NCBI GenBank assembly: GCA_023245895.1
Contig: JAHFJJ010000002.1
Coordinates: 3,348-67,347 of the forward strand
DNA from: Candidatus Doudnabacteria bacterium
GTDB lineage: Bacteria; Patescibacteriota; Doudnabacteria; UBA920
Length of the DNA: 64,000 nt
Direction: 5' to 3'
Part shown: one piece after another, positions 8,958-24,397 of the stretch
Layout: each line of letters begins with the position of its first letter
How positions within the stretch are numbered: the stretch's first letter is position 1
Translations under genes and position numbers: made by a program
The notes under the pieces: model-generated
What the model saw: only the letters and a program-made list of their open reading frames with translations
Told to the model about the DNA's origin: nothing
Database searches by the model: none

Positions 8958-11075
8958 CTAAATTTGCCTTCGCTTATCAATCTCCTTTCGCAAAAAACCT
9001 AACGCGTAGGGCAGGGCAGTAGCCGGTTTATCTGTGGAAAATGCAAAAATATTCTTGTTTTTATCTTTCAAAGGTTCAATATAGGAAGCGGTTACGGCCT
9101 CGGCTTCTTCCTGGTCATCGCCGTATCCGATTATTAAAAAAATAACCTGGCCGTCTTCCTCAATTTGCTGCATAACCGGGGCTATGCCCTCGCGGTTGCC
9201 TTGGCCGTCCGTAAACATAATAATTATTTTGATGACGTTATCTTTATTCAAGGCTAAAGCTTCGTGGACTTGCTTAACCGCGGCCACTTCGTCAGTACCG
9301 CCGCCGACTTGCGATAAGCGGTCTACAATCTTAATTTCTTTTTCGTCGCTCAAACGCTCTTCCAGCTTACTGACGCGCTCCGCCGCGGTTGAGTATTTAG
9401 TTACGCCGACCTGGAAAGGCTGCTCTTCGTCCGGGATAAGCAGGTTTTCCGCTTCCAGGTCTTTTAAAACCAGTTTGAAACTCTCCACAATAATAACGCC
9501 CATATCGGTGGACTTTTCAATCTTTTCGCCAAACATGGACTCCGAGGTGTCGTAGAGCAGTTCAAGCTGGGTTTGCAAAAATTGCGGATTGCGCACGAGC
9601 CTCATTTTGGTATCGGGGTCAAGCTCGCCGGTTAAAATTGCGGCTACGTGCTCATATTCCAAGCCCGGCACAATTTCGCCTTCGCGCTTGAGGTATTCAA
9701 TTTTTTTGCGTCTGTCGTCTAAAAATATTTCTGCCAAAACCGCGGCAGTAGACATAATTTCCGAAGGGTATTTTTCTTTGGTCCGCTCCCAGCTTTCTAT
9801 AGATTCCTGGCGGACTTGCATGCCTTCGGCCAGGCCTCTTTGGCGGCGCGCGCGGTCTAAGTCCCGCAAGGCTTCTGCCCGCGCCGCAAGCGCGTCCGCG
9901 CCGCGGTCGTCCTTAGGCGGGGCTACTGGAACTTTAGGCCCCTCTTTGCCCAGTATGCCCTCCAGTTCTTTCATTGCCTCGCCAAACTTTTCCCCATCCT
10001 CTTTGGAAGGCGCCTGGCTGGCATATTCTTTAGCTGCTTCTTCCAGTTCTTTGAGCAACTGGTTTTTTAGTTCTTCAATTTCTGCTTTGGTCAAAGGCAC
10101 GTCCGAAGTATCCCTGCCGGGCTTACCCGGCTTGCCGCCTTTGCCTTTTTGCCCTTCGCCTTTTTGTTTTTGCCGCTCTTCTTTTCGCTTCTCCAGCTCG
10201 GCAGTCATCAGCTTAAGGTACTCCGGCAGCCAGACTTGCTCGTAAGCCTGCATTTTACGCTCTAGACTGCGTTTTTGTTCGCCCTCTTTGGCAAAATAGG
10301 TGTAAGCCTGCCAATCCATGGTTGTGGACAGGGCTCGGCTGTCAATAATCCTGCGGAACGATTTATACACATCATCATCCAATTTTTTTCCAACCTCGGG
10401 GTCTTCATTAAAACGGTGCCTTAAAATAGACTGCAAAAGCTGTTGGGGTTTGGAATAATTTTTATATGTCTCCGGCGGCTTGTCCTCGGTATTAAGCGCG
10501 CGCACCGCGTTGCGGATTATAGTATAAGGCCGCCTGCCGGCAAAGGACTCCAGCCAAACATCAGCCACGGCATTATTGACATTGCCGTGAACCGCCCCTA
10601 AAAAGCGCTGTTCAGCGTTTGCGTCCCCTCTATATGCCTCGGGTATGGGCACATGTTTTAGGTTGCCAAGTAGCCTGTCCTGCAGTTCAGTAACTTCCGG
10701 AGCGTGGTGGAAAGCTTCGTGGTAAAAAAATCCTTTAGCCTCTGCTGGCTGCCAGGGCTCTACTCCAAATTCAGGCGCGCCGGTCGCGTGGATGGGATTA
10801 TAATAAATGGTTTTAGTGTTCAAGTTCGTATAACCGGACTTTAACACGCCTGTCTGGCGGAATTCCTGTTCAAGCGCCGGGTCCGGCCGGAACGAAAACC
10901 CGCCCGAAGCGCTGGAAAGCATTTTTAAATGCTCCGGGCTAATGACCTTTTCCATTTCCAAAGGCGGCCGTCCCGGTTTTTTTTCGCCCTTCCCATCCGG
11001 CGCGTCTGGAGGAAGCGGCGGTTGGTTTTGGCCCATTTCGTATTGTGCTGATTGCTTTTCGGATTTTTCGCTCAT
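8958..11075 (-). CDS. vWA-domain protein with an N-terminal HExxH (putative metallopeptidase) region, the MoxR-partner type
   Basis: 705 aa. N-terminal FFYHEAFHH holds the HExxH motif. The C-terminal vWA has the MIDAS motifs DTSES (DxSxS), GGGTD and FTDGQGN. A central Lys/Glu-rich low-complexity linker contains GKPGKPG. Confidence 0.8.
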   Translation of the reverse strand: MSEKSEKQSAQYEMGQNQPPLPPDAPDGKGEKKPGRPPLEMEKVISPEHLKMLSSASGGFSFRPDPALEQEFRQTGVLKSGYTNLNTKTIYYNPIHATGAPEFGVEPWQPAEAKGFFYHEAFHHAPEVTELQDRLLGNLKHVPIPEAYRGDANAEQRFLGAVHGNVNNAVADVWLESFAGRRPYTIIRNAVRALNTEDKPPETYKNYSKPQQLLQSILRHRFNEDPEVGKKLDDDVYKSFRRIIDSRALSTTMDWQAYTYFAKEGEQKRSLERKMQAYEQVWLPEYLKLMTAELEKRKEERQKQKGEGQKGKGGKPGKPGRDTSDVPLTKAEIEELKNQLLKELEEAAKEYASQAPSKEDGEKFGEAMKELEGILGKEGPKVPVAPPKDDRGADALAARAEALRDLDRARRQRGLAEGMQVRQESIESWERTKEKYPSEIMSTAAVLAEIFLDDRRKKIEYLKREGEIVPGLEYEHVAAILTGELDPDTKMRLVRNPQFLQTQLELLYDTSESMFGEKIEKSTDMGVIIVESFKLVLKDLEAENLLIPDEEQPFQVGVTKYSTAAERVSKLEERLSDEKEIKIVDRLSQVGGGTDEVAAVKQVHEALALNKDNVIKIIIMFTDGQGNREGIAPVMQQIEEDGQVIFLIIGYGDDQEEAEAVTASYIEPLKDKNKNIFAFSTDKPATALPYALGFLRKEIDKRRQI

Positions 11076-11140
11076 ATGCTATTATACTTAAATTTTTTAA
11101 TTTTCGGTACTTCGTTAAGTTTACTATGTATATCTCATTT

Positions 11141-11947
11141 TTAAAACTTTTTTGATTCAGGGATTTTAGAAGCGGCAATGCCTTGGTCTCGTTCTGGCAT
11201 TACCAATTCCAAACCCTCATCACCTATTTTAATTTCTTGAGCGGCTAAAATTTTCAAGCTCCTTGCAAGTTTAATAAAATTAAACCAATCATCAGCGTCT
11301 CTATATTCCCCAAGTTTCCTCTTCATTTTTTTCCAGGTTTTTTGGTCCGGTTGACAGTCAATTGGTACGCTTAAAAGTTTAATACGCGCCGCGAATTCAA
11401 CATACTCTTCCAGGTTCGAGGTTCGCTTTTCTTCCAATTCCATTTTCATGCCTTCAATCACCCGCTTATCTATACCCAGTTCCGCATCGGGTTTGAACAA
11501 CTTTAAACTCCCCGCCTCATAAGCAAAGTTCCAAAATTTATTGGCTGAACGAAGCGCCTGATTTTTGGACCTTTTTATGCTTCTTACTCCTGCGGCTACG
11601 GCTTTTTTTATAATCTCCTGGTCTGCGCTTATTTTAAGCACCCTTAAACAAGCTAAAAAACCTACATTTTCATAGGAACCGAAATCGGTGGTGGATTTTT
11701 GTTTTAACATTGCTTCTAATCCCCGGCGCCAGCTGTCGGTTAATTGGAATTTAATATTGGGATCCAGAATTTTTAAACTTAGCATATGATCTACGCTACC
11801 TGAGCTTTGGGAAAATGATTGCATTGCCCGCCAGTCTTCCTGCGTGACTTCAGTAGCGGTGTCAAAAGTTCCCGCAGGCCTTTCCTGCTCAACGCTGAAA
11901 TTTTTTATATTCAGTTCTTCCGCCGGAATTCGCGTTTCAATAGCCAT
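11141..11947 (-). CDS. tandem-array paralog 13 (most distal) of the 'M-A/S-I-E-x-R-I ... K-x-F' family
   Basis: 268 aa. Starts MAIETRIPAEELNIKNF and ends KIPESKKF. Confidence 0.8.
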   Translation of the reverse strand: MAIETRIPAEELNIKNFSVEQERPAGTFDTATEVTQEDWRAMQSFSQSSGSVDHMLSLKILDPNIKFQLTDSWRRGLEAMLKQKSTTDFGSYENVGFLACLRVLKISADQEIIKKAVAAGVRSIKRSKNQALRSANKFWNFAYEAGSLKLFKPDAELGIDKRVIEGMKMELEEKRTSNLEEYVEFAARIKLLSVPIDCQPDQKTWKKMKRKLGEYRDADDWFNFIKLARSLKILAAQEIKIGDEGLELVMPERDQGIAASKIPESKKF

Positions 11948-11951
11948 AAAA

Positions 11952-12815
11952 TTAAAACTTTTTTACTTCGGGCAGATCTTGGGTTTTAGCCCCAACTTTA
12001 GGCTCAGGCATTTTTATTTTTAAACCCGCTTCCGTAACCCTAACCTCCTCGGCCGCAAGAATACCTGCATCGGCAATAAGCACAACAGCCTCTCTTATAT
12101 TCCCGTCGCGCAGGTAATCGCTGATTGTCGTTCTAATCCCATCCCAGGCTTTGGCCGTTACCCTTATTTCTTTTAGTACATCGGGCGCGCCGACTTTTAA
12201 CAGCATTGCGTAATTAGTAAAATTAGCCCACTCCTCCGCCTGGCCGTAATCTTTTACAGACTGCACCATTTCCAAATCCGGGTCAAGGACTTCTTCCCGC
12301 AGGTCCAAAGGCATTTTATTTGGGTACAGTACTTTTAGCGCAATTTGTGTTTCAATTTGGTTCGCCGATGTGTCGAGGCTATTTTCTTTAGCCATTTCCC
12401 ATAAACCTTCGCCGTCTATGCCGTATTGGGAAAATTTGTCAGGCGCAAAAATTTTCAGGACAGCCGCATCCTGAACCGCATAGCCCAGTACGTCGACGTC
12501 GCATAATTCCCCATCGTCCACAAATCTAGCATAATTCTTCCAAAATTGTTTTTCCACAATTTCCTGGCATTTTTCGGCTACTTCTTTAATTTTTTCCGGG
12601 TTCATTTGCAGTAAAACGGTTAAAGCCCAGGCGGGGTAGTCTTCTGTTTCAGCATATTTTGAAGAATTATATTTTTCCAAATAATCTTTAATTTGCTTCC
12701 ACTCCTCTTCTTTGACATCGCGGATCGGATCAAATTCAACAGCCATCTCCAGCCTGTCAATGCTAAAATCCCTAATATTGAGTTCTTGGGTATTGATTCT
12801 TTCTCCGATGGCCAT
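11952..12815 (-). CDS. tandem-array paralog 12
   Basis: True start MAIGERINTQELNIRDF (ATG at 12813-12815); the ORF track extends it to 12944. Ends PEVKKF. Confidence 0.8.
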   Translation of the reverse strand: MAIGERINTQELNIRDFSIDRLEMAVEFDPIRDVKEEEWKQIKDYLEKYNSSKYAETEDYPAWALTVLLQMNPEKIKEVAEKCQEIVEKQFWKNYARFVDDGELCDVDVLGYAVQDAAVLKIFAPDKFSQYGIDGEGLWEMAKENSLDTSANQIETQIALKVLYPNKMPLDLREEVLDPDLEMVQSVKDYGQAEEWANFTNYAMLLKVGAPDVLKEIRVTAKAWDGIRTTISDYLRDGNIREAVVLIADAGILAAEEVRVTEAGLKIKMPEPKVGAKTQDLPEVKKF

Positions 12816-12816
12816 A

Positions 12817-13659
12817 TTAAAAATTTTTAGTTTTAGGAACCGGGGGCGTTTCCAGGATTTTTGGTTTTGGCTTGCTTTGCAGGTGGAGTCCCGATTGGTT
12901 AATTTCAATTTGGTCTGCTGAAATAATCGCAAGTTCACACGCAAAATCCAACTGGTCTTCAGGCGGCATGCTATGAAACTTTGTTTTTATTTCTATCCAC
13001 TCGGTTTCGTCCACAGCCTGTAAGTCAAACTTGCCAGGCAAAATAACGCGCAGGACGGCCAGTTGGCTTACCAAACTCCGCCAGGACTTTTTAGAGCGGC
13101 TTAATTTAATTGAACCTTGCAACTCCGGCAAAAAGTCTTTGGCTAATTTTAGCTTGTTGTTAGGCGTTAGGATTTTTAGGTTTTTATAGACTTCCTGGGT
13201 CAGACTGCCTGAGCCGACGCCTGCACAAAATTCAATTGCTTTATTTCTCGCGGCTAGTGGCAGTAAAAAATCCGGCATAATTTTTTTAATGGAGTATGCC
13301 GCGCGGATGAGCGTATCGGTGGTAGCGGCAGTCTCCCCGTTGGAATTTTTTTCAACCAGATATTCCCAGGTTTTTTCCAGCCCTTCTCTTAATTTCGTCA
13401 TTTGACCAGAGGACAGCCTTTTTAAAGTTTCCGCCTTCAAGAAACATAAATTGCCTAAGTTTTTTAGACGGTGGGGAACAACACTGCCTGAGGCAAGCCA
13501 GGGTAAATCTTCGGCAGCTAAATTTTCAAAAACTTTCCACTCCCGCTCGTAAATATCTTTTTTCGGGTCAAAGCCCGCGGTGTTGCCGGCTTGCTCTCTC
13601 TCGATGCTCAAACCTTTAATATTTAATTCTTCCCTAGGAATTCTATATTCAATAGGCAT
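12817..13659 (-). CDS. tandem-array paralog 11
   Basis: Starts MPIEYRIPREELNIKGL and ends PVPKTKNF. Confidence 0.8.
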   Translation of the reverse strand: MPIEYRIPREELNIKGLSIEREQAGNTAGFDPKKDIYEREWKVFENLAAEDLPWLASGSVVPHRLKNLGNLCFLKAETLKRLSSGQMTKLREGLEKTWEYLVEKNSNGETAATTDTLIRAAYSIKKIMPDFLLPLAARNKAIEFCAGVGSGSLTQEVYKNLKILTPNNKLKLAKDFLPELQGSIKLSRSKKSWRSLVSQLAVLRVILPGKFDLQAVDETEWIEIKTKFHSMPPEDQLDFACELAIISADQIEINQSGLHLQSKPKPKILETPPVPKTKNF

Positions 13660-13661
13660 AT

Positions 13662-14447
13662 TTAAAAGTTTTTAGTTTGCGGGACAGGTTGCGTGCTGGT
13701 GAGCGGCACTTGTTCTTCCGCCATAACCAATTCCAGCCCCTTGTCTGTAATTTTTACTTCTTTGGCGGCTAAAATTGACATGCTATAGGCAAGCATAAGG
13801 CTGTCAAGGTCCGTTTGGACTGTTTTTTGGAGGGTTGTTTTCATTGCTTTCCAGTCAGCTTTGCTTATTGCAGTCTTGGCAAATTCTTCCGGAAACAAAA
13901 TTTTTTCCCTGGCCGAGTAGGAAGCAAATAACCTGGGGGCGTGTAATTGTTTATCGGGCTCAAATTTCATATGCTGGAGCCACATACCGGCCTTTTCCGG
14001 AAACAGGATTTTCATATTTTTTGCCATTTCCCTGTAAGTTTGGTCCTTTTTAGCCAATCTTGTGTCGTGAAGCTTTTGAATAATCTTGCCTAAATAATTG
14101 TCCAGGTTTTTTGATTTAACCACTTCCGGCCATAATTGTTTAATGGTAGCGCCCAGTGAGGCAACGTCATACCATTGGTTTCGTCTTATGGCCTCGGAAA
14201 GGTCGCGGTCAGCCGCGTTTTTTTCTTGTTCCTGCGCGGGCAAAGCGCCGGGCTGCATGGTCCTAAGTCGGGCCAAGTAAGTATAGCCGCCTCTAGAAAG
14301 ACCATTAATAGCCAATTTAATTTTCCGCCATTGTTGCGGACTCAAATCCCGCGCGGGGTTAAACACCGCCCGGGTTTCCGCCCTATGCTCGGTGTGGAAG
14401 CTTTTAATATTCAAGTCTTGTTGTGGAATTCGTTGTTCTAAGGACAT
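13662..14447 (-). CDS. tandem-array paralog 10
   Basis: True start MSLEQRIPQQDLNIKSF; ends PVPQTKNF. Confidence 0.8.
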   Translation of the reverse strand: MSLEQRIPQQDLNIKSFHTEHRAETRAVFNPARDLSPQQWRKIKLAINGLSRGGYTYLARLRTMQPGALPAQEQEKNAADRDLSEAIRRNQWYDVASLGATIKQLWPEVVKSKNLDNYLGKIIQKLHDTRLAKKDQTYREMAKNMKILFPEKAGMWLQHMKFEPDKQLHAPRLFASYSAREKILFPEEFAKTAISKADWKAMKTTLQKTVQTDLDSLMLAYSMSILAAKEVKITDKGLELVMAEEQVPLTSTQPVPQTKNF

Positions 14448-14448
14448 A

Positions 14449-15279
14449 TTAGAAGTTTTTAATTTGGGGGATTTCTGGAGCTTTTTGCATAGTATTTTTT
14501 TCAGGCATAACAATTTCCAGGCCGTTGTCGCCAATTTTTGCTTCTTTGGCGCCAAGAATGGTCATTTCTTTTAATTTATAGCACGTGTAATAAAAGTCCC
14601 CATGAATAAGGCTGGATTCAACTGACTGCTTAAAATTTTTTTTCATCTCTTTCCAGTCGCCTGGGCCTATAACCAAGGCGTCCGGATAGCTCATTTTTAA
14701 GCTGGCGGCATCATTCCTAATAAGCTCCCAATATTTTTCCCGCTTTGCCTTTTGTGTTTTAAAATCAGCTAATATAATGTCTTTTGGTACCATATATTCT
14801 GGAGTAACTTCATCCGGAAATAGGATTTTCAAATAACAGTAAGTACGGGGAGAAAAGTTGTTTCTGATAGGGTTTAATTTTATTTTTTGCCATAAAGGGG
14901 CTAGTTTGGCTGTTAGGTTTTCAGCAGCAAAAGTTTCGGGGTCCAGCCTCTTGAGTTCAGCGGCGTCGACAAAAGGGTCGGTAATACTTTGCCCGGGCTC
15001 TTCTGCCTTTAGCAAGTCTTTTGTAAATTTTGATATTATCCTTTGCCTGCAAACTTCAGCCATATCCGGGAACAGTTCAGGATTAATCCCTTTTAAGAAT
15101 GTTAAAGTTCCTATTGGCAGTGCTTGGCTGTCGGCTGTTAAAATAAACTCTCTTAACGCCTTCCATTGCTCGGGAGTAACCTCTTCCATGGGATTAAACT
15201 CGATATTTACTCCCCGCTGTTCCAGGCTGAACTCCCTGATATTCAGTTGTTCGGTATTTATCCGTTGGTCTAAGGACAT
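14449..15279 (-). CDS. tandem-array paralog 9
   Basis: True start MSLDQRINTEQLNIREF; ends PEIPQIKNF. Confidence 0.8.
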   Translation of the reverse strand: MSLDQRINTEQLNIREFSLEQRGVNIEFNPMEEVTPEQWKALREFILTADSQALPIGTLTFLKGINPELFPDMAEVCRQRIISKFTKDLLKAEEPGQSITDPFVDAAELKRLDPETFAAENLTAKLAPLWQKIKLNPIRNNFSPRTYCYLKILFPDEVTPEYMVPKDIILADFKTQKAKREKYWELIRNDAASLKMSYPDALVIGPGDWKEMKKNFKQSVESSLIHGDFYYTCYKLKEMTILGAKEAKIGDNGLEIVMPEKNTMQKAPEIPQIKNF

Positions 15280-15280
15280 A

Positions 15281-16093
15281 TTAAAAATTTTTAATTTTTG
15301 GCAGGGTTGATTTAGTTTCGGCTTCAAAAGCCGCGGGTCGGGTTATTTCCAAACCATTTTCGGTAATCTCTATTGCAGGGGCTGTGGCAATAAGCAAGTT
15401 AAAGGCATCTCCCACAAGTTCAGAAGGATGAGTTTTGTTTTTCTTTAGGTGTTTTTTCATTGCTTGGACAAATTCTGGCCCAAGCTCGGGCTTAAACCAA
15501 GGGTCAATAGTTCTAATACAGGCGCCATATTTAAAAATATCTGAAACCGAGGAGCCTGGCCTGGCTTTTAGAGCATCAAAGTCTTCCTTAAAAATTACAT
15601 CCGGCCCCGCATCTAAGTTGGGCAGGAAAATATAATCGTTTAATTGCAAACCGGTTATTTTCATATCGGCAAAAACTTGCATACTGTAGAAAGGGGCGTC
15701 GCTTTTCAGAAATTTATCTATTGAGTTAACTTCTTTCGCCGTAAAATTAAATTCATAGTTTATTGGCTTTAAAATTTTTAGTGCCGCTAGCGTATCGAAA
15801 AATTGATCCCAATGCTCTAACATCCTGCTTTCTCTCACTACCGCCATAGTTCTCTCTTCCCATTCAGGGTCGAAGTTAATTGCGATTGCCGGATTTAAGA
15901 GCTTTATTTTAGAAGCAATCCGGGCGGAGTCATCGGGCTTAAATTCTTTATTTTCCTCCATTACCTGCAAAAGATCGTCCCACTGCTCAGCACTAATATC
16001 CCGCTCTGGGTCAAAGCTCTCGTTATTCCACTCCTGAAAATTAAAGTCTTTAATATTTAGTTGTTCGGTATTTATTCGTTTGTCTAAGGACAT
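15281..16093 (-). CDS. tandem-array paralog 8
   Basis: Starts MSLDKRINTEQLNIKDF and ends LPKIKNF. Confidence 0.8.
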   Translation of the reverse strand: MSLDKRINTEQLNIKDFNFQEWNNESFDPERDISAEQWDDLLQVMEENKEFKPDDSARIASKIKLLNPAIAINFDPEWEERTMAVVRESRMLEHWDQFFDTLAALKILKPINYEFNFTAKEVNSIDKFLKSDAPFYSMQVFADMKITGLQLNDYIFLPNLDAGPDVIFKEDFDALKARPGSSVSDIFKYGACIRTIDPWFKPELGPEFVQAMKKHLKKNKTHPSELVGDAFNLLIATAPAIEITENGLEITRPAAFEAETKSTLPKIKNF

Positions 16094-16094
16094 A

Positions 16095-16886
16095 TTAAAA
16101 AGTTTTAAATTGCGGGAGAGCGCCGGCAGGCTCAGCCAGCTCGCCCGAGGAAATGGTTAATTCCAGGCCATTGTCTGTTATTTTTATTTCCTCGGCCGAA
16201 ATTATGCCCATATAGTAGGCCAGTTTAATGGCCCTTAAATAATCACGGCTGTTTTGGCGCTTTTCAAAAAGAATTTGGAATTCGTATTTCATTTTTTTCC
16301 AGTTTTCTTTGGACACAGGGGCTTTTTTAAATTTTTCCGGCGCGACAATTTTTTGGCTGGCCTTAAAGCCGGCGTAGGTTTCGGCAAATTGGTATTCAGG
16401 TTCGGTATTAAGCTCTGGAATTTTAAATTTTTCTGCTTTGTCCGGAAACAGTATGGTTAATTCCCTGGCCATTTGTATCCTATTGACTTCGCCAAACTTT
16501 CCTTCCAAAGCCAGCGCCAGTTGGTCCAAATCACCTTCAAGGCCTATGGCTTTAAACTCTTTTGGATAAAGCTGCTTCATCGCAAGCGCTATTTTTGGCA
16601 CTGCCCGCCAGTTGTCTTTGGCCATCAAAGCCTCTAGTTCGTCGCTAACAACCGACTTGGTGGAAGGCTTGTCTACTATTTTGTATAAACAGCCCGGCCT
16701 TATAGTCCTTAGTTCCGCCAAAGCCGTCCAGGACAAATGGGTATTCATAAAACTTTCAATAATTTTCCATTGCTCGGGCGTAATATCCCTGTTTAAATTA
16801 AACTCCTGGGGTGCCTCCTGGACGCCAAGGTTTAGGTCCTTTATATTTAAATCTTCTGAATCTAATACGCGGTTTTCAATAGCCAT
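16095..16886 (-). CDS. tandem-array paralog 7
   Basis: Starts MAIENRVLDSEDLNIKDL and ends ALPQFKTF. Internal repeats include AMKQLYPKEF and LTILFPDKAEKF. Confidence 0.8.
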   Translation of the reverse strand: MAIENRVLDSEDLNIKDLNLGVQEAPQEFNLNRDITPEQWKIIESFMNTHLSWTALAELRTIRPGCLYKIVDKPSTKSVVSDELEALMAKDNWRAVPKIALAMKQLYPKEFKAIGLEGDLDQLALALEGKFGEVNRIQMARELTILFPDKAEKFKIPELNTEPEYQFAETYAGFKASQKIVAPEKFKKAPVSKENWKKMKYEFQILFEKRQNSRDYLRAIKLAYYMGIISAEEIKITDNGLELTISSGELAEPAGALPQFKTF

Positions 16887-16888
16887 AG

Positions 16889-17731
16889 TTAGAAATTTTT
16901 AATTTTCGGAATTGCCGGCGTTGCCTGGCTTATTTGGGCGTTGTTTGACAGCTCCATGCCGTGGTTTGTAAATTTCACCTCTTTGGCCGCCATAGTAGCC
17001 AGCCATTCGGCTAAGTTTATATACTGTAAACAGTCATGGCCGCTTTGGCAATTGTCTAATTTTTCAAAAAGTTGGGTTTTCATAGCTTCCCAGTTTTTTG
17101 CGGTAATTTTTACTTTCGCGAATTCTTCCGGAAACAAAATTTTCAACAGGGCCGCGCTTTTGCAAAACATATACCAATTGCCGCCTTTATTTTGCGCCAT
17201 ATCTTGTTTCAATAGCGAAACGTCGTTGTCCTTCAACAGGTCTTTTTCTTGGCCAGGGAAAAGAATTTTAAAATAAAGAACGTTGTCTAAATCTACTGTA
17301 CCCCGGCCTGTTATTTTAGGCTTCCTTAAGGCTTCGGCCATTCGTTCGCGATATTGCTCGGCCAATGCTTGCGAAAACCTTTCCGGAAATAAGGTTTTCA
17401 TTTCGGCAAAATTACCAAGCAAATTATCATAGCCCATTTCTCCCCGCTCGCAATGGCGTAAAATGGTTTTGGCGAATTTATCCATCTTCTGCCATTTTTT
17501 ATTGTCAGATTTTTCAAATAGTCTTTTTGGTTCAATCACCTGCAAACTTGCCAAATAAAGGTCAACATTTTCTTTTCGCGCAGACCGTTCCATTTTATCC
17601 CATTGCGCTTTGCTCAAATCCCTTACCGGATCAAAAGGTACATCCTTAGAAGACTCCGCCGAGGGCAACTGCTCCAGGTTTAACGAGCTAATATTCAATT
17701 CTGCCGGGTTAACCCGCTGTTCTATGGACAT
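16889..17731 (-). CDS. tandem-array paralog 6
   Basis: True start MSIEQRVNPAELNISSL; ends PAIPKIKNF. Confidence 0.8.
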   Translation of the reverse strand: MSIEQRVNPAELNISSLNLEQLPSAESSKDVPFDPVRDLSKAQWDKMERSARKENVDLYLASLQVIEPKRLFEKSDNKKWQKMDKFAKTILRHCERGEMGYDNLLGNFAEMKTLFPERFSQALAEQYRERMAEALRKPKITGRGTVDLDNVLYFKILFPGQEKDLLKDNDVSLLKQDMAQNKGGNWYMFCKSAALLKILFPEEFAKVKITAKNWEAMKTQLFEKLDNCQSGHDCLQYINLAEWLATMAAKEVKFTNHGMELSNNAQISQATPAIPKIKNF

Positions 17732-17732
17732 A

Positions 17733-18530
17733 TTAAAATTTTTTAATTTCAGGAATACGCGAACCAAGTTCCGGTAATTTTTGTACTGCCGGCGACAGTT
17801 CCAGTCCCCTATTCGTAAATTTCAGCTCGCTCGCGGAAATAATAGCCATGTCCCTGGCCAAAGTTATGGCTTTGTCTAAATTCGTGCCTTTTAATTCCGC
17901 GCGCAAGTCTTGTTGCATTCCTTTCCAGGCATTGTCGCCGATGTTTTGAATATTAAAACGTCCAGGAAATAAAATCCGTAATGTGGCCATATCTACAGCT
18001 AAGCTTGGCCAATTTTTGAGTTTTTTTGAAAGACCAATGTTTAGGGTAATAGCAGTAAAATCTTCTTCGTTTACTTCCACTCTTTCAGGCAGCAACCTTT
18101 TCATTCGAGTAGCAAGGTCAAAATAAAGAGCGTCATTCCAATGCCTTAACGCAATGTTTTCCAAGTCCTCGCGGGCAATAAATTTTTCCCACTGGTCAGG
18201 CCATAACTGCCTAATTGACGCGGCGACATCCAAAAAAACCAGCTGGGCTTGAACGTGATTTACTTCCTTTACTCTCCTGGAAATCTGCTCGCTTAGTTCC
18301 GGGTTGGTTGCCGGATTGGGGAGGTTGGGAAAGCTTTCAGGCCTTATTAAGCGCAAATCCGCAATTCTTTCCCAGACATGGTAAGTTTGCTCTACTTCCT
18401 TCGCGTCTGCTTCCATGCGCCGCCAGTCGTCGGGTTTAATATCAAATTCCAGCAAGCCTTTTTCCGGAGTCTGGATATTAAAGTTCTTTATATTCAATTC
18501 TGCCGGGTTAACCAGCTGTTCTATGGACAT
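17733..18530 (-). CDS. tandem-array paralog 5
   Basis: Starts MSIEQLVNPAELNIKNF and ends RIPEIKKF. Confidence 0.8.
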   Translation of the reverse strand: MSIEQLVNPAELNIKNFNIQTPEKGLLEFDIKPDDWRRMEADAKEVEQTYHVWERIADLRLIRPESFPNLPNPATNPELSEQISRRVKEVNHVQAQLVFLDVAASIRQLWPDQWEKFIAREDLENIALRHWNDALYFDLATRMKRLLPERVEVNEEDFTAITLNIGLSKKLKNWPSLAVDMATLRILFPGRFNIQNIGDNAWKGMQQDLRAELKGTNLDKAITLARDMAIISASELKFTNRGLELSPAVQKLPELGSRIPEIKKF

Positions 18531-18531
18531 A

Positions 18532-19365
18532 TTAAAAATTTTTAATTTCGGGCGTCGGTGGAGTCGCGGTTTCTGATTGTTTTTTTGGCATCACCAACTC
18601 CAAGCCCTGCTCTGTAATTTTAATTTCCTGGGCGGCTATCATTGCAAGGTCGCGGATCATGCCGGCTTGGTCCACGCTTTTAGTCTTTCCCTGGGCCAAT
18701 AAAAACTTTAAATGACTTCGCCAAATTTCCCAGGTTTGGCAATCAACTTTTAACTTTTTGGCGTCATCCGGAAGCAAAGCCTTAAAGGCCGCAAAATACG
18801 CGAGTTTTAAGCTAAAATCATCAGCCATAACCTGTTGCAAGGGTTCATTTATAGGTTCTCCTTTTGCCAGAGTTTCCAACCAGGGATCTGTGGGTATTTT
18901 ATCTAAACTGAGTTCACCCGCCCGGTCGGGAAACAGAACCCTCATATCAATTAAAAATCCCGGACCTACGTCGCCTGATGCCAGCTGCTCATTTCCTTTA
19001 CGCCACAGTTTCGGGGCGGTTCTAAAAGTTAGCGGTTCAAATTTATCCGGAAAAAGTTGCTTAAACCCCGCGTATTCCGTAACCACGGAATACCAAAGGT
19101 TTTCGTCAATTAACCCTTGAATCCTCCTTTTAAAAATATCACCCTCCGGCACCGGAATATGGGTAAACTTATCCGGCCGTACTTGCCGAAGCACAGCCAG
19201 CATGCCATAAAAGGCGGGATTGTCAGATATGGTTTGGCTTAAAAGTTCCCAATCCCTTTCGCTCACGTCCCGCTTAGGATCAAATTCAACGCCGGCCTGC
19301 GGCTGTTCCAGGTTCAGTTCTTTTATATTCAATTCTTGCCGATCAATCCGTTTTTCTATGGACAT
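18532..19365 (-). CDS. tandem-array paralog 4
   Basis: True start MSIEKRIDRQELNIKEL; ends PTPEIKNF. Confidence 0.8.
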   Translation of the reverse strand: MSIEKRIDRQELNIKELNLEQPQAGVEFDPKRDVSERDWELLSQTISDNPAFYGMLAVLRQVRPDKFTHIPVPEGDIFKRRIQGLIDENLWYSVVTEYAGFKQLFPDKFEPLTFRTAPKLWRKGNEQLASGDVGPGFLIDMRVLFPDRAGELSLDKIPTDPWLETLAKGEPINEPLQQVMADDFSLKLAYFAAFKALLPDDAKKLKVDCQTWEIWRSHLKFLLAQGKTKSVDQAGMIRDLAMIAAQEIKITEQGLELVMPKKQSETATPPTPEIKNF

Positions 19366-19366
19366 A

Positions 19367-20203
19367 TTAAAAATGTTTAGCTTCCGGCAGCGGCGAGTCC
19401 GCTGTGAAATTTGTTTCCGGTAAAATAATAACTCCGCGTTCATCAATATGTGCGTCCGGGCAGGATAAAATTTTTAAATAACTTCCGACCCTCATCAGTT
19501 CGTAGGGAGCCCCCTGTTCTAGCCAAAATTTTTTAATGCCGCTCCAGTCTCGCGCTTTAATTAGGGGTTTTACATCCGGAGCCATTAACTTTAACGCTAC
19601 TGCTTTGGCTAAATCCGCACTTAAATGGAATTTTGAGTTGGGTGTTATAGCGAAAGATGTTTTTTTCATCTCCTCTATGGCTTTTTCCATAACTTGAGTC
19701 CATCGCATGCCTTTTAAATGCTGGGGAAAAACTTGCACCGCTTCCAAATGCTCATAGGGAAACGCAAGCGAACTTTCAATGCGGTCGTCAACCAGCTTCC
19801 AGTTCTCTTCCGAATTCCACTTTTTCCAAACATCGGTCCGCTCAGGAAACAGCCTTTTATATGCAGACGCGATACCTAAAAATTGCTGTACAGAAGGGCG
19901 GCTGCCTGTAGTCAGAGGCATTTCATTTGCCGCGGCTTCAAGAGCGCTGGCTAATTTTTCTGAAACTTGCGCATCGGGAAACAAAAATTTATAATTCGCC
20001 AAATAATCGGGCTTTTGCCCGAAAGCCGGCCTGCCTTCTTCCCAGTCACCGCTTATCCTAAGAAAGTTTTGCAGGCAGACCTCTCTGGTATTTTTTGGAA
20101 TTTCAACCTCGGGGTTAAATTTAAACCCGTCCACAGGCTCCTGTTCAAAGCTCAGCTCCTGGACTTTTAATTCGTTCGGGTCAATGCGTTTTTCAATGGC
20201 CAT
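19367..20203 (-). CDS. tandem-array paralog 3
   Basis: Starts MAIEKRIDPNELKVQEL and ends PLPEAKHF. Confidence 0.8.
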   Translation of the reverse strand: MAIEKRIDPNELKVQELSFEQEPVDGFKFNPEVEIPKNTREVCLQNFLRISGDWEEGRPAFGQKPDYLANYKFLFPDAQVSEKLASALEAAANEMPLTTGSRPSVQQFLGIASAYKRLFPERTDVWKKWNSEENWKLVDDRIESSLAFPYEHLEAVQVFPQHLKGMRWTQVMEKAIEEMKKTSFAITPNSKFHLSADLAKAVALKLMAPDVKPLIKARDWSGIKKFWLEQGAPYELMRVGSYLKILSCPDAHIDERGVIILPETNFTADSPLPEAKHF

Positions 20204-20204
20204 A

Positions 20205-21011
20205 TTAAAAATGTTTAGTTTCCGGAGGGCCGGTTTTGTTGTCAGTCTGCATTTCTGTTAAATTGCCCAACTCCAGGCCATTGTTTGTAACTTTTACTGT
20301 AGAAGCCGAGGCAATAACTGCGTTTACCGCATTTTCTGAAACCGGGAAAAGATCTGTTAATTCTGTCCCTGCCTTTAGTACTCCTTTTATAGCTTGGAAG
20401 TGTTTGGGTGTTAATTCAGGGTCAAAATTAGGTTTAACAATTCTCATACTGGCGGCGAAGCGGAATAGTTTTTCAATGGGCGCCTTCTCTTTCATTTCAG
20501 CCATGGTGGCTTCCAAAACACCCCAAAACTCCGGCGTAAGATATTTGTCCATAGGCAGGCCAATAATTTTTATTTCCGCTAAATGCAGCAATTGATAATA
20601 AGGTTCCATATTCGGGTCTGTCAGGAACACTTCTATAGACTCCGCTTCTTCCTGGCTGAATACAAATTTTTTTGAAGGCTGTAGAATCTTGATTGCTAAA
20701 GCTAGCGGTAAAAAGTCGCCCCACTCTTCGTCTTTTTTGTCAGTTTGTAATTCGTTTTCAATTTTAGTAAATTCTTCAGTCTCGATTTTTGGAGCTTCGT
20801 TTGGATACAAGATTTTGAGGTTTGCAGACATTAACGCGACATAATATCTACTACTTCCAGCCCTATAAGATTCTAAATCTCTAAACAAGCCCTGTTTTTG
20901 GCTTTGACTGAAGTCTCTTTTTGGATTAAAAAGGAAAGGCTGTTGCTTTTCGTTGAGGCTCAGTTCTTTGATATTCAGCCCTTCTTGGCTTATTCGTTTT
21001 CCAATAGGCAT
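20205..21011 (-). CDS. tandem-array paralog 2
   Basis: True start MPIGKRISQEGLNIKEL; ends GPPETKHF. Confidence 0.8.
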   Translation of the reverse strand: MPIGKRISQEGLNIKELSLNEKQQPFLFNPKRDFSQSQKQGLFRDLESYRAGSSRYYVALMSANLKILYPNEAPKIETEEFTKIENELQTDKKDEEWGDFLPLALAIKILQPSKKFVFSQEEAESIEVFLTDPNMEPYYQLLHLAEIKIIGLPMDKYLTPEFWGVLEATMAEMKEKAPIEKLFRFAASMRIVKPNFDPELTPKHFQAIKGVLKAGTELTDLFPVSENAVNAVIASASTVKVTNNGLELGNLTEMQTDNKTGPPETKHF

Positions 21012-21012
21012 A

Positions 21013-21876
21013 TTAAAAATGTTTAATTTGTGGGGCGTCAAATTTTGGCTTTCCGATGGGTGTAACCGGCATAACAAATTTAATCCTATTGTCTTCAACC
21101 ACAATGCGTTCCGCGGCCAAAGCTTGCAAAGTTGCCGCAACATTTAAAAATGTAGTCCAATTGCCCCTCTTCCGCCATCCTTCAAGGATGTCCCTTAGTT
21201 TTTTTACAGGCGGCAATTTCCCCTGCCAATGTGCGGCAAGTTCCGGGAAAGCGTACTTAATAGCGGCGGTTCTATTGATAAGCACGGAAGTTTCGTTTAA
21301 GTGTTTTTTGTTGTCACTATATTGTTTGTAAGCCCATTCCCAGGCAGTGGCACAAAACTGTTTTGCTTCTTCCGGCAGAGGTTCGGTCGGATAACAAATT
21401 GCGAAATTTTTAATTAACTTTACACCCTCATCAATCCAGTTGGTTGTCGTGTAATACAAAACGCTTTCTTTTAAAAGCTTAAATATTTCCGGGTTTTTTA
21501 AAATTTGCGCGCAATTCTGCGGGAACAAAATTTTCATCATCATTAGAGCCTCTGCTAGTTTTCCCGGTTTGCTTTCAGTTAAGTGTTGTTCTATTATAGT
21601 TTTTAAATTTTCTTCCTTAACAAAAGTTTTATTCTCATATGGAAAGTGCAAAAGCTGCGCGGGCGCCAAATAGTAGATGCTGGCGTACAAGTCATTTTCC
21701 GCTCTGGGCGCGCCGGAAGCTTTTTTAAAACTTACCAAAGACTCCAATATCCTGGTTTTGTCTGAATCTGTTATGTCGCGATTGGCATCAAATAAAATTT
21801 CAGTACTTTGGGAGCTTTCCAAAGATAAATCCTGAATTTTTATTTCTTGCGGATCAATCCGTGTTTCTATGGCCAT
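21013..21876 (-). CDS. tandem-array paralog 1 (first after the ATPase)
   Basis: True start MAIETRIDPQEIKIQDL (ATG at 21874-21876); ends DAPQIKHF. Confidence 0.8.
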   Translation of the reverse strand: MAIETRIDPQEIKIQDLSLESSQSTEILFDANRDITDSDKTRILESLVSFKKASGAPRAENDLYASIYYLAPAQLLHFPYENKTFVKEENLKTIIEQHLTESKPGKLAEALMMMKILFPQNCAQILKNPEIFKLLKESVLYYTTTNWIDEGVKLIKNFAICYPTEPLPEEAKQFCATAWEWAYKQYSDNKKHLNETSVLINRTAAIKYAFPELAAHWQGKLPPVKKLRDILEGWRKRGNWTTFLNVAATLQALAAERIVVEDNRIKFVMPVTPIGKPKFDAPQIKHF

Positions 21877-24043: not shown

Positions 24044-24261
24044 ATATTTTGGTTAATTTAAAGTTGGTTTCTTTTGTTGATTTTAGGCTAAAACACCCTT
24101 TAATTATAATATAAATTTTGTTATTTTGCAAAAAGGCTTTTATTATAGGCAATCCGAGCTTATTCCCTTAAAGTAAAAAATTGATTTCAGCCCACAAACA
24201 CAATGGGCTGCGCTAAGCGCAGCCCGAATTCAAGCCTTAAAATCTTCTTCTTGTAGTATTA

Positions 24262-24337
24262 TGGAGCCCAAGTGCGGAATTGAACCGCAGACCTTCTCCT
24301 TACCATGGAGATGCTCTACCAACTGAGCTACTTGGGC
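24262..24337 (-). tRNA. tRNA-Thr (anticodon GGU)
   Basis: Reverse complement reads GCCCAAGTAGCTCAGTTGGTAGAGCATCTCCATGGTAAGGAGAAGGTCTGCGGTTCAATTCCGCACTTGGGCTCCA. A TATAAT sits 7 nt upstream. Confidence 0.85.
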
Positions 24338-24355
24338 GTGTATTATAGAAACAAT

Positions 24356-24387
24356 TTCCGCCAAAGGCGGATCCGCCTTTGGCGGAA
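24356..24387. repeat. perfect 32-bp GC-clamp palindrome ttccgccaaaggcggatccgcctttggcggaa (double hairpin); a likely terminator between the TPR gene and tRNA-Thr
   Basis: Perfect inverted repeat centred on GATC. A near copy lies at 1346..1376. Confidence 0.65.
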
Positions 24388-24397
24388 ACAGGCAGAA

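What the first reader, a model, noticed from the sequence alone, without database searches (positions are those of the whole stretch)
8958..11075. Terminal gene combines an HExxH metallopeptidase-like motif with a vWA MIDAS domain and a Lys/Glu/Gly-rich linker
The N-terminal 300 aa contain FFYHEAFHH, a single HExxH, in a region predicted to be helical. The C-terminal 200 aa are a textbook vWA domain with DxSxS, T and D motifs. Between them is a low-complexity charged stretch (...KEERQKQKGEGQKGKGGKPGKPG...). This matches the putative metallopeptidase plus vWA-like architecture that is typically encoded next to MoxR ATPases. That supports a regulated protease or activation role toward the upstream paralogs, for example processing of their conserved termini.
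Basis: partly seen in the sequence, partly recalled or inferred. Interest (0 to 1): 0.55.

Follow-up and report, generated by a model that had tools for sequence, protein, structure and literature searches.

The report
Zinc-protease-like vWA adaptor, CPR ATPase operon
The gene is real and encodes a protein with a conserved zinc-protease-like head, a floppy charged tether and a metal-dependent vWA binding domain. It is the partner of a MoxR-like ATPase in a rare operon of candidate-phyla-radiation (CPR) bacteria that also carries 13 fast-diverging helical-repeat proteins sharing one C-terminal tail.

Summary
Window 8958-11075 on the minus strand encodes a 705-aa protein. It has one HExxH (HEAFHH, aa 119-124), a K/E/A/G-rich linker (about aa 296-411) and a canonical vWA domain (Pfam E 4.5e-12) with a complete MIDAS (the vWA metal-binding site).

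HExGHH and a downstream N168-x3-D172-x3-E176 helix face are essentially invariant in 79 relatives. The AlphaFold2 model of the N-domain (pLDDT 94) has a minimal zincin topology.

It is not a detectable member of Pfam DUF2201_N/DUF2201. The N-domain family is tiny (51 of 1.84 billion representatives), has no Pfam model and is seen almost only in CPR bacteria.

Its nearest structural relatives are viral vWA proteins. One is halovirus HCTV-2 gp79, which has the same motif pair, a charged linker, a vWA domain and an AAA_5 ATPase nearby.

The gene always travels with an AAA_5/MoxR-like ATPase. It usually travels with 5-16 alpha-solenoid paralogs ending in P-x-x-[KR]-x-[FY]-COOH, a tail also found on about half of the ATPase homologs. 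These paralogs diverge far faster than the enzymes.

Best reading: an ATP-regulated, tethered zincin-vWA adaptor acting on tail-bearing clients. Proteolysis and terminus processing are inferred, not shown. Verdict: partly supported, a new variant of a known kind.

The parts
8958..11075 (-). Whole gene: 705-aa zincin-like / linker / vWA protein
   Evidence: ORF and translation. 53 full-length homologs at 37-59% identity.
10176..10943 (-). N-terminal zincin-like domain (aa 45-300)
   Evidence: AlphaFold2 model with pLDDT 93.9 and pTM 0.90. Topology: strand, backing helix, two strands, HExxH helix, then a long helix carrying N/D/E. No Pfam, PDB-sequence or PHROG match. Only 51 relatives among 1.84 billion representatives.
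10704..10721 (-). HEAFHH (aa 119-124), family signature HExGHH
   Evidence: H119, E120 and H123 invariant in 79/79; H124 in 78/79. Kept in all distant full-length relatives.
10548..10577 (-). NNAVADVWLE (aa 167-176): N168, D172 and E176 on one helix face, candidate third ligand and second shell
   Evidence: N168 79/79, D172 79/79, E176 78/79. Lies in model helix 112-139 in domain numbering. The same NxxxDxxxD spacing occurs in HCTV-2 gp79.
9843..10190 (-). K/E/A/G-rich flexible linker (aa 296-411), including the low-complexity run at 10116-10184
   Evidence: Composition. Low conservation.
10068..10100 (-). Conserved short motif VPLTKAEIEEL inside the linker (aa 326-336)
   Evidence: P, L and T at least 90% conserved and E invariant in 53 homologs. 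Function unknown.
9567..9842 (-). Conserved pre-vWA segment (aa 412-503; ...FLDDRRKK...GEIVPGLEYE...DP.TKM...)
   Evidence: A cluster of invariant columns: F, R, R, G-L-E-x-E, G, P.
9006..9566 (-). vWA domain (aa 504-690). MIDAS (metal-binding site): DTSES at 9537-9551, T594 at 9294-9296, D623 at 9207-9209
   Evidence: PF00092 E 4.5e-12 and PF13519 E 4.7e-7. MIDAS residues invariant. Integrin I-domain hits in PDB. CobT_C sub-threshold in 24/53.
8961..8996 (-). Conserved basic C-terminus FLRKEIDKRRQI
   Evidence: Consensus FLKREVxKRRxx in homologs.
21920..24043 (-). AAA_5 / MoxR-like ATPase (707 aa) heading the operon; ends in PAAKQF
   Evidence: AAA_5 E 4e-11 and partial GvpN match. Walker A, Walker B, sensor-1 N and SR conserved in 63 homologs. 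Some sources name homologs 'MoxR-like ATPase'.
21013..21876 (-). Paralog 1 (287 aa), tail PQIKHF
20205..21011 (-). Paralog 2 (268 aa), tail PETKHF
19367..20203 (-). Paralog 3 (278 aa), tail PEAKHF
18532..19365 (-). Paralog 4 (277 aa), tail PEIKNF
17733..18530 (-). Paralog 5 (265 aa), tail PEIKKF
16889..17731 (-). Paralog 6 (280 aa), tail PKIKNF
16095..16886 (-). Paralog 7 (263 aa), tail PQFKTF; the one modelled
   Evidence: AlphaFold2 pLDDT 83. Alpha-solenoid at 31-230, beta-hairpin at 233-244, both termini disordered.
15281..16093 (-). Paralog 8 (270 aa), tail PKIKNF
14449..15279 (-). Paralog 9 (276 aa), tail PQIKNF
13662..14447 (-). Paralog 10 (261 aa), tail PQTKNF
12817..13659 (-). Paralog 11 (280 aa), tail PKTKNF
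11952..12815 (-). Paralog 12 (287 aa), tail PEVKKF
11141..11947 (-). Paralog 13 (268 aa), tail PESKKF; the only paralog with a clear ortholog in the closest related locus
   Evidence: 52% identity to L011 12189-13013, against 22-28% for the other twelve.
24103..24132 (-). Promoter-like site (TTGCAA-17-TATAAT) upstream of the ATPase start
   Evidence: Consensus scan only. Two strong terminator-like hairpins lie just upstream, at 24389-24354 and 24225-24205.

Best explanation
The gene encodes the vWA adaptor ('co-chaperone') of the operon's AAA_5/MoxR-like ATPase. Its target-facing N-terminal domain is a zinc-binding, zincin-type peptidase domain, tethered to the vWA domain by a flexible charged linker of about 115 residues.

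Proposed mechanism, by analogy with NorQ/NorD-type couples:
1. The vWA domain and the basic C-terminus dock on the ATPase ring.
2. The MIDAS (the vWA metal site), or alternatively the zincin cleft, captures a carboxylate-bearing determinant of client proteins. The obvious candidate is the free C-terminal tail P-x-x-[KR]-x-[FY]-COOH shared by the operon's alpha-solenoid paralogs and many of the ATPases.
3. ATP-driven remodelling of the linker positions or unmasks the zincin, which then cleaves or trims the captured client or the adaptor itself.

Shown here: the domain anatomy, motif invariance, intact MIDAS, conserved co-occurrence with the ATPase, and the paralogs' shared disordered termini.

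Inferred: zinc binding, catalysis, ATPase-vWA contact, the tail as the docking signal, and any processing.
For: - vWA domain with invariant MIDAS.
- HExGHH and N168/D172/E176 are invariant across 79 relatives, down to E about 1e-5 hits.
- High-confidence model whose order of elements is that of a minimal zincin: strand, backing helix, two strands, HExxH helix, downstream acidic helix.
- Every weak hit of the isolated N-domain that has a recognisable function is a zincin: DUF2201_N, SprT-like and Reprolysin_3 in Pfam, PHROG 'metallo-protease' for P0094, selecase in PDB, and SprT-like, IrrE and 'Peptidase' in BFVD.
- The best structural matches are the N-terminal parts of viral vWA proteins (probability 1.0, 0.98 and 0.96; TM about 0.4). 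One of these, HCTV-2 gp79, has HEMEH, NxxxDxxxD, a roughly 250-aa acidic linker, a vWA domain and an AAA_5 ATPase four genes away.
- The literature already describes a MoxR plus metallopeptidase-vWA pair in jumbo phages (PMC7824862).
- In NorQD the vWA plugs the ATPase pore, the NorD C-terminus contacts NorQ, and ATPase action remodels the linker between the N-domain and the vWA (PMC13036017, PMC9976466).
- The operon is tight (stop, 1 nt, ATG between paralogs). ATPase and vWA-zincin co-occur in all eight other loci examined.
- The ATPase catalytic motifs are conserved.
- Tail motif: present in 14 of 15 system proteins in the window against 1 of 55 other ORFs, in about 62 of 63 paralogs in six other genomes, and in 31 of 70 ATPase homologs.
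- The tail is conserved at protein level: Pro uses four codons, and K/R and F/Y interchange between genomes.
- The paralog termini are predicted disordered, as docking peptides would be.
- An ATPase-paralog fusion exists (P0101).
Against: - No significant sequence or fold match to any solved zincin: Foldseek against PDB gives best E 0.8, and an HMM against PDB finds nothing.
- The model coordinates could not be inspected, so the geometry of H119, H123 and a third ligand was not measured.
- HExxH sits at the very end of its helix, and HH is an unusual continuation.
- hhalign of the family profile against HCTV-2 gp79 is not significant.
- MoxR-vWA couples often insert metals rather than cut proteins.
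- No evidence bears on whether the paralogs are cleaved.
- The tail is missing from about half of the ATPase homologs and from the vWA protein.
- In L005 and L007 no paralog lies between the ATPase and the vWA gene.
Confidence: 0.5

Rival explanations
1. The HExGHH / N-D-E site binds a metal but does not cut proteins. The N-domain would be a metallochaperone or metal-dependent recognition module, and the ATPase-vWA couple would insert a metal into, or remodel, the alpha-solenoid clients. This is what NorQ/NorD (Fe), CobS/CobT (Co) and ChlI/ChlD (Mg) do.
For: MoxR/vWA couples with a variable N-domain are best known for metal insertion and remodelling (PMC9976466, PMC13036017). The vWA domain is closest, though sub-threshold, to CobT_C in 24 of 53 members. 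The ATPase hits the PHROG 'porphyrin biosynthesis' (CobS-like) family at E 7e-6. There is no significant similarity to any characterised peptidase.
Against: An invariant Glu directly after the first His (HE) is the hallmark of a catalytic base, not of a storage or transfer site. The G in HExGH and the sheet-then-helix topology are those of peptidases. The paralogs show no conserved Cys, His or acidic cluster that would receive a metal.
Confidence: 0.18
2. Conflict or repertoire system. The rapidly diversifying alpha-solenoid paralogs are sensors or baits (or exported effectors), and the ATPase-vWA pair is the gate. The zincin is the output effector that is released or activated when a paralog is engaged, in the style of the MoxR-vWA ternary systems.
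For: The paralogs diverge far faster than the enzymes. Loci whose vWA proteins are 76% identical share paralogs at only 25-37%. For the window against its closest relative, the vWA is 58% and the ATPase 61% identical, but 12 of 13 paralogs are at 22-28%. Copy number varies from 5 to more than 15, and net charge ranges from -20 to +11. Kaur et al. describe MoxR-vWA systems with a hypervariable all-alpha component, and linked zincin systems that release conserved C-terminal peptides from fast-evolving proteins (PMC7159879).
Against: No PADLOC match. No VMAP, iSTAND, FtsH or beta-propeller third component was detected. No toxin-like effector domain is present. GC content equals the flanks and the neighbours are housekeeping genes. 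Fast divergence could equally reflect relaxed constraint on repeat proteins.
Confidence: 0.2
3. Self-processing adaptor. The zincin cleaves its own linker, for example near the conserved VPLTxxE motif, as the eukaryotic CLCA proteins do with their N-terminal HExxH domain and vWA domain. This would release or activate the vWA half. The paralogs would not be substrates.
For: CLCA proteins combine an N-terminal HExxH zincin with a vWA domain and are described as self-cleaving (PMC10669480 and bioRxiv 10.1101/2025.10.18.683246, listed). A near-invariant short motif sits in an otherwise unconserved linker.
Against: No homology to the CLCA catalytic domain was detected. The only CLCA-related hit is the vWA domain, at E 0.023. 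The idea rests on analogy alone.
Confidence: 0.1
4. The HExxH is a fossil or coincidence, and the N-domain is only a helical specificity or docking domain for the ATPase or the clients.
For: N-domains of MoxR-associated vWA proteins are generally variable and non-enzymatic (PMC9976466). There is no significant match to peptidases.
Against: A chance HExxH is expected in about 1.6% of shuffles. Chance cannot explain 79/79 invariance of H, E and H, plus N168, D172 and E176, in sequences as little as about 35% identical.
Confidence: 0.04

Closest known systems
Pfam DUF2201_N (PF13203, 'putative metallopeptidase domain') plus DUF2201 (PF09967, VWA-like) proteins encoded beside MoxR ATPases
   Same: N-terminal HExxH domain followed by a vWA-type domain, genomically linked to an AAA+ of the MoxR/AAA_5 kind.
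   Different: No HMM membership: nothing for the window protein, and sub-threshold hits in only 2 relatives. The C-terminal domain is a canonical PF00092 vWA with a full MIDAS. A long charged linker and a conserved pre-vWA segment are present. The protein is about 700 aa. From my own knowledge, DUF2201 proteins are much shorter; this was not tested here.
Viral MoxR plus metallopeptidase-vWA pairs: group 2.2 jumbo phages (Iyer et al. 2021, PMC7824862) and halovirus HCTV-2 gp79 / gp83
   Same: The best structural matches of the N-domain (BFVD probability 0.96-1.0). HCTV-2 gp79 has HExxH, NxxxDxxxD, a long charged linker and a vWA domain, with an AAA_5 ATPase nearby.
   Different: No detectable sequence homology: hhalign is not significant and tblastn against 50,697 phage records finds nothing. 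The viral linker is acidic rather than K/E-rich. The CPR family is absent from 2.9 million viral contigs and sits among housekeeping genes. The viruses have no tail-bearing paralog array.
MoxR-vWA chaperone couples NorQ/NorD, CbbQ/CbbO, RavA/ViaA, CobS/CobT
   Same: An AAA_5-type ATPase with a large partner built as a variable N-domain, a linker and a C-terminal MIDAS vWA domain. The partner's C-terminus and linker are functionally important in NorD.
   Different: Those N-domains are not reported to carry a zincin signature. Their targets are single enzymes (cNOR, Rubisco, and others), not an array of paralogs. The ATPase here is twice the usual size, with a coiled-coil-like N-extension and an insert in the AAA core.
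MoxR-vWA-centric ternary conflict systems and their linked zincin peptide-processing modules (Kaur et al. 2020, PMC7159879)
   Same: A MoxR-vWA core plus a hypervariable all-alpha third component. Some have a zincin that acts on fast-evolving proteins with a conserved C-terminal peptide.
   Different: Here the zincin is fused N-terminally to the vWA protein. The third component is a tandem array of 5-16 alpha-solenoid paralogs rather than one VMAP or iSTAND protein. There are no effector domains, no radical-SAM partner and no PADLOC match. The host is a CPR bacterium, not a multicellular bacterium.
Eukaryotic CLCA proteins (self-cleaving HExxH zincin plus vWA)
   Same: An N-terminal HExxH metalloprotease domain and a MIDAS vWA domain in one chain (papers listed).
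   Different: CLCA proteins are extracellular, Cys-rich and not coupled to an AAA+. Only the vWA region shows any similarity, at E 0.023.

Membership tests
vWA domain (Pfam PF00092) with MIDAS (metal-binding site) | HMM score above the Pfam gathering cut-off | tested here: met
   47.0 bits against a cut-off of 23.8, E 4.5e-12, aa 506-658. All 53 homologs match.
vWA domain (Pfam PF00092) with MIDAS (metal-binding site) | Complete MIDAS: DxSxS, then T, then D | tested here: met
   D509, S511, S513, T594 and D623 present and invariant in 53 sequences.
DUF2201_N (PF13203) / DUF2201 (PF09967) | N-domain matches the PF13203 model | tested here: not met
   No hit at E <= 1 for the window protein. 2 of 53 relatives at E 0.3. 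2 of 37 isolated N-domains at best E 0.042. A profile-profile (HHpred) test could not be run.
DUF2201_N (PF13203) / DUF2201 (PF09967) | C-terminal domain matches PF09967 (VWA-like) | tested here: not met
   PF09967 is not among the families listed for any member. PF00092 and PF13519 are.
DUF2201_N (PF13203) / DUF2201 (PF09967) | Linked to a MoxR-type AAA+ gene | tested here: met
   An AAA_5 ATPase is in the same operon, 13 genes upstream. It is directly upstream in L005 and L007.
Zincin metallopeptidases (HExxH clan) | HExxH on a helix, conserved in the family | tested here: met
   79/79 invariance. The motif lies in model helix 70-82 in domain numbering.
Zincin metallopeptidases (HExxH clan) | Third metal ligand (H, E or D) placed to complete the site | tested here: inconclusive
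   Invariant candidates are H124, D172 and E176, on a helix 49-53 residues downstream. The coordinates of the model were not available, so no distances were measured.
Zincin metallopeptidases (HExxH clan) | Zincin fold (mixed sheet, backing helix, active-site helix) | tested here: inconclusive
Zincin metallopeptidases (HExxH clan) | Zinc-dependent peptidase activity | not testable with these tools
   Needs biochemistry.
MoxR AAA+ / vWA chaperone couple | Partner ATPase of the MoxR/AAA_5 group with intact catalytic motifs | tested here: met
   AAA_5 E 4e-11 and GvpN model E 7.7e-8. Walker A and B, sensor 1 and SR are conserved. It is atypical in size and carries an insert.
MoxR AAA+ / vWA chaperone couple | vWA 'finger' that enters the ATPase pore; physical complex | not tested
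MoxR-vWA ternary conflict systems (Kaur et al. 2020) | Third component is a VMAP, iSTAND, FtsH or beta-propeller, with effector domains on the vWA protein | tested here: not met
   The paralogs have no Pfam, NCBIfam or PADLOC match. The vWA protein carries no C-terminal effector domain. VMAP-C itself is not in the libraries searched, so this part is only indirect.
Viral metallopeptidase-vWA proteins (jumbo phage / HCTV-2 gp79 type) | Homologous N-domain | tested here: inconclusive
   Fold match with probability 0.96-1.0 and TM 0.39-0.43, and shared HExxH plus NxxxDxxx[DE] spacing. But hhalign gives probability 0.2 and there is no BLAST hit.

The most novel reading that the evidence does not exclude
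A CPR-specific, ATP-gated 'repertoire' machine. A library of 5-16 very rapidly diversifying alpha-solenoid proteins each carries an invariant free C-terminal docking tail (P-x-x-[KR]-x-[FY]-COOH, also on many of the ATPases). The tail would be captured by the MIDAS metal or by the cleft of a tethered zincin, and the client then remodelled or cut under control of an oversized MoxR-like ATPase. This would amount to an innate-immunity-like sensor array, or an effector-maturation system, in ultra-small episymbiotic bacteria. It would be built from a zincin domain family with no described relatives.
Probability: 0.2. Interest if true: 0.8.

Novelty: new variant of a known kind. Interest (0 to 1): 0.6.

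Why it matters
- MoxR-vWA couples are widespread but mechanistically obscure. A version in which the adaptor's target-facing domain is itself a conserved zincin would be a natural example of an AAA+-gated protease outside the classical FtsH, Lon and Clp designs.
- The shared, strictly C-terminal tail gives a concrete, testable recognition signal.
- The operon is about 15 kb and encodes 15 proteins. From my own knowledge, CPR genomes are only about 1 Mb (not measured here), so this would be a large investment.
- The extreme divergence of the paralogs against slowly evolving enzymes suggests a role in conflict or host interaction, areas where CPR biology is almost unknown.
- The N-domain family is also an unannotated zincin-like family that current domain libraries miss.

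Tried and rejected
**Searches that found nothing or could not run**
- The model coordinates are not exposed to scripts, so metal-site geometry was not measured.
- tblastn of the whole protein, of distant relative P0089 and of the ATPase core against 50,697 phage records found no match. The vWA half against 72,556 plasmids found no match.
- A profile search with the 13 paralogs (A3) against 5.8 billion proteins returned only the window's own genes, because the word filter fails at this divergence. Paralog homologs were taken from loci instead.
- The PADLOC defence library gave nothing meaningful. IMG/VR gave no relatives.

**Leads that failed**
- I guessed that the jumbo-phage example ASV44728 was in Agrobacterium phage Atu_ph07. 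That was wrong: the record uses other protein accessions.
- hhalign of the N-domain profile against HCTV-2 gp79 was not significant.

**Ideas considered and rejected**
- The TPR protein just upstream (24398-25156) as the tail receptor. Rejected because it is separated from the operon by a tRNA and two terminators, and the region upstream of the ATPase in L006 encodes unrelated membrane proteins.
- The tail conserved only as nucleotide sequence for translational coupling (AAAAATTTTTAATATG). Rejected as the main cause for three reasons. The Pro uses all four codons. K/R and F/Y swap in other genomes. The ATPase and the last paralog keep the tail although 43-65 nt spacers follow.
- A recently acquired island or prophage. 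Rejected because GC content equals the flanks and the neighbours are EF-Ts, S2 and RF1.


Full report
**1. The observation**

The interval 8958-11075 is one ORF on the minus strand, 705 aa plus stop. The plus strand is full of stops.
- The protein has a single HExxH, HEAFH at aa 119-123 followed by H124, and a single DxSxS, DTSES at aa 509-513.
- Pfam places a canonical vWA domain at aa 506-658 (PF00092, E 4.5e-12, 47 bits against a cut-off of 23.8; PF13519, E 4.7e-7).
- T594 (GGGT) and D623 (FTDG) complete the MIDAS, the vWA metal-binding site.
- The quoted low-complexity run is at aa 298-320. Residues 296-410 are dominated by K, E, A and G.
- A chance HExxH occurs in about 1.6% of residue shuffles of this protein, so the motif alone is weak evidence. 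Conservation decides the matter.

**2. Conservation**

A search of 5.8 billion proteins returned 53 relatives, all but one full-length, at 37-59% identity, all with the vWA domain and none with any Pfam hit on the N-terminal 300 residues. One relative is named as a Candidatus Daviesbacteria protein.
- In their alignment, H, E, H, H of the motif, N168, D172, W174, E176 and all five MIDAS residues are invariant (that alignment's numbering is one lower because I dropped Met1).
- A profile of the N-domain alone (A4), scored against all 1.84 billion cluster representatives, found only 51 proteins at E <= 0.001.
- Every full-length member again has a C-terminal vWA domain and no Pfam domain at the N-terminus. 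Every member that covers the region keeps HExGHH.
- Over 79 sequences, H119, E120, H123, N168 and D172 are 79/79, and H124 and E176 are 78/79.
Both fail.

**3. Structure of the N-domain**

AlphaFold2 on aa 41-301 with this alignment gives mean pLDDT 93.9 and pTM 0.90.
- The order of elements is helix, strand, helix, strand, strand, then the helix ending in HExxH, then further helices. One of these, a long helix, carries N168, D172 and E176 at i, i+4, i+8, that is, on one face.
- That is the layout of a minimal zincin with a gluzincin- or aspzincin-like third element.
- Foldseek against PDB found nothing significant (best E 0.8). The minigluzincin selecase appears only at rank 39. A profile search of PDB sequences found nothing.
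- Against predicted viral structures, the top three hits are 635-784-aa proteins, one of them (rank 3) named 'VWFA domain-containing' (probability 1.0, 0.98, 0.96; TM 0.39-0.43). Low-probability hits to SprT-like, IrrE and 'peptidase' proteins follow.
- I retrieved one top hit, halovirus HCTV-2 gp79. Its N-terminus has HEMEH followed by NVLEDQYID (N-x3-D-x3-D). Then come about 250 residues of acidic low complexity, then a vWA domain with DLSGS. An AAA_5 ATPase (E 2e-18) lies four genes downstream.
- Sequence-level homology to gp79 is not detectable (hhalign probability 0.2).
- Sub-threshold Pfam hits of the isolated N-domains include DUF2201_N (2 of 37, best E 0.042), SprT-like (0.0063) and Reprolysin_3 (0.15). 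These are all zincins, and none is significant.

My conclusion is that this is a zincin-like metal site with high probability. It is an undescribed family at sequence level, and it is not a member of PF13203.

**4. The surroundings**

The gene closes a tightly packed minus-strand operon.
- At its head is a 707-aa ATPase (21920-24043) with AAA_5 (E 4e-11) and a partial GvpN match.
- The ATPase has conserved Walker A and B, sensor 1 and SR motifs, a poorly conserved roughly 260-aa N-extension, and a roughly 100-aa insert between Walker A and B. Some sources call homologs 'MoxR-like ATPase'.
- Between the ATPase and the vWA gene lie 13 paralogs of 261-287 aa, mostly separated by stop, 1 nt, ATG. 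They are 15-35% identical to one another.
- All 13 share an N-terminal M-x-I-E-x-R-I-x3-E-L-N-I-K-x-L motif. All end in G-L-E-L...P-x-x-K-x-F followed directly by the stop codon.
- None of the 15 proteins has a hydrophobic segment.
- A model of one paralog (pLDDT 83) is an alpha-solenoid (31-230) plus a C-terminal beta-hairpin. Both conserved termini are disordered. It has no significant PDB neighbour, only weak HEAT/ARM-like matches.
- GC content equals the flanks. A promoter-like site precedes the ATPase, after two strong terminators and a tRNA-Thr.

**5. Conservation of the system**

In eight other loci (L001, L002, L004-L008, L011, L012) the vWA-zincin gene is always accompanied by the ATPase where the contig reaches it. 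It is usually accompanied by 5 to more than 15 paralogs, which often continue downstream of the vWA gene. 'Terminal' is therefore a local accident.
- In L005 and L007 the ATPase is directly followed by the vWA gene.
- Among one genome per 185,579 species, only five loci were found: two Staskawiczbacteria, one Daviesbacteria, and two short contigs labelled proteobacterial that are probably mis-binned.
- None was found in 2.9 million viral contigs.

**6. The tail**

- P..[KR].[FYW] at the very C-terminus is found in 14 of the 15 system proteins and in 1 of 55 other ORFs of the window.
- It is found in about 62 of 63 paralogs of six other genomes and in 31 of 70 ATPase homologs. It is never found in the vWA proteins, which instead end in a conserved basic FLKREVxKRR.
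- The Pro uses all four codons, and K/R and F/Y interchange between genomes. The constraint is therefore on the protein.
- The stop codon sits immediately after the aromatic residue. This argues for recognition of a free C-terminus, not for an internal cleavage site.
- One ATPase homolog (P0101, 1009 aa) is fused in frame to a paralog.

**7. Rates of divergence**

- The closest relative locus (L011) has a vWA protein 58% identical and an ATPase 61% identical to the window's. Yet 12 of 13 window paralogs find only 22-28% identical best matches there. Only paralog 13, next to the vWA gene, has a 52% ortholog.
- L011 and L012 have vWA proteins 76% identical, but their paralogs match at 25-37%.
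- The paralog cores therefore turn over far faster than the enzymes, while their termini stay fixed.

**8. Mechanism**

Published work on NorQ/NorD shows four things:
- A vWA finger plugs the MoxR pore.
- The NorD C-terminus contacts NorQ.
- ATPase action remodels the linker between the variable N-domain and the vWA domain.
- The MIDAS is likely to bind surface carboxylates of the target (PMC9976466, PMC13036017).

Iyer et al. had already noted a MoxR plus metallopeptidase-vWA pair in jumbo phages and proposed proteolytic processing (PMC7824862). Kaur et al. describe MoxR-vWA systems with hypervariable helical third components and linked zincins acting on fast-evolving proteins with conserved C-terminal peptides (PMC7159879).

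By analogy, I propose that this protein is the ATPase's adaptor, that it captures tail-bearing clients, and that ATP-driven linker remodelling gates its tethered zincin.
- Shown here: anatomy, invariance and co-occurrence.
- Inferred: metal binding, catalysis, docking and any cleavage.

Rivals are a non-proteolytic metal site (metal insertion, as in NorD or CobT), a conflict or repertoire system with the zincin as output, CLCA-like self-cleavage in the linker, and a fossil motif.

**9. Verdict**

The architecture and the ATPase linkage hold. PF13203 membership does not. Terminus processing is untested, and the strictly C-terminal tail argues somewhat against an internal cleavage site there.
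- It is a new variant of a known kind, the MoxR-vWA couple with a peptidase-bearing adaptor. It is distinguished by an unannotated zincin-like family, a near-exclusive CPR distribution, and a tail-tagged, rapidly diversifying alpha-solenoid array.

Noticed in passing
window 11076-11140 (minus strand), spacer before the vWA start codon: The 65-nt spacer contains GAAGTACCGAAAATTAAAAAATTTAAG. This reads EVPKIKKF-K, a relic of a paralog tail without its stop codon. A perfect TATAAT lies 5 nt before the ATG, which could be an internal promoter giving a near-leaderless transcript.
   Followed up: partly
window 11141-11947 versus L011 12189-13013: Paralog 13 is the only one with a clear ortholog (52% identity) in the closest related locus. 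There it lies just downstream, not upstream, of the vWA gene. No such ortholog exists in L012.
   Followed up: partly
P0101 (1009 aa), also P0118 (939 aa) and P0142 (933 aa): P0101 is an in-frame fusion of the ATPase with a complete paralog, with the ATPase tail replaced by the paralog's N-terminal LNIKSLTLEEP motif. P0118 and P0142 are over-long ATPases with extra N-terminal sequence.
   Followed up: partly
window 22850-23150 approx. (ATPase aa 335-435): The ATPase has a poorly conserved insert of about 100 aa between Walker A and Walker B. Pfam AAA_5 matches it in two separate stretches.
   Followed up: no
window 24262-24337 and 24205-24389: A tRNA-Thr(GGT) flanked by two strong terminator-like hairpins sits directly upstream of the operon's promoter-like site. 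Whether it marks an insertion point was not examined.
   Followed up: no
window 8111-8722 (minus strand): A NYN-domain (LabA-like nuclease) gene lies 235 nt downstream of the vWA gene (Pfam E 7e-24; PADLOC NYN E 5e-6). It is not seen next to the system in the other loci.
   Followed up: partly
window 24398-25156 (minus strand): A membrane-anchored TPR protein lies just upstream of the operon. I considered it as a C-terminal-peptide receptor, but it is not conserved with the system.
   Followed up: yes
L005 (CAYMIE010000033.1) and L007 (JAAYZI010000161.1): Two short contigs carrying the ATPase plus vWA-zincin pair are deposited as Gammaproteobacteria and Deltaproteobacteria MAGs. Given 40-47% identity to CPR proteins and 7-9 kb contigs, they look mis-binned.
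   Followed up: no
L006 1-4000: Upstream of the Daviesbacteria ATPase, on the opposite strand, is a cluster of small and large multi-pass membrane proteins of unknown function.
   Followed up: no
window 8958-11075: The window's own vWA protein was not returned at 100% identity from the 5.8-billion-protein collection (best 59%). Its ATPase was returned (P0095), as were two paralogs. The candidate cap or a different gene call may explain this.
   Followed up: no
window 4435-5430 (plus strand): A 331-aa ORF with no Pfam match at E <= 0.001.
   Followed up: no
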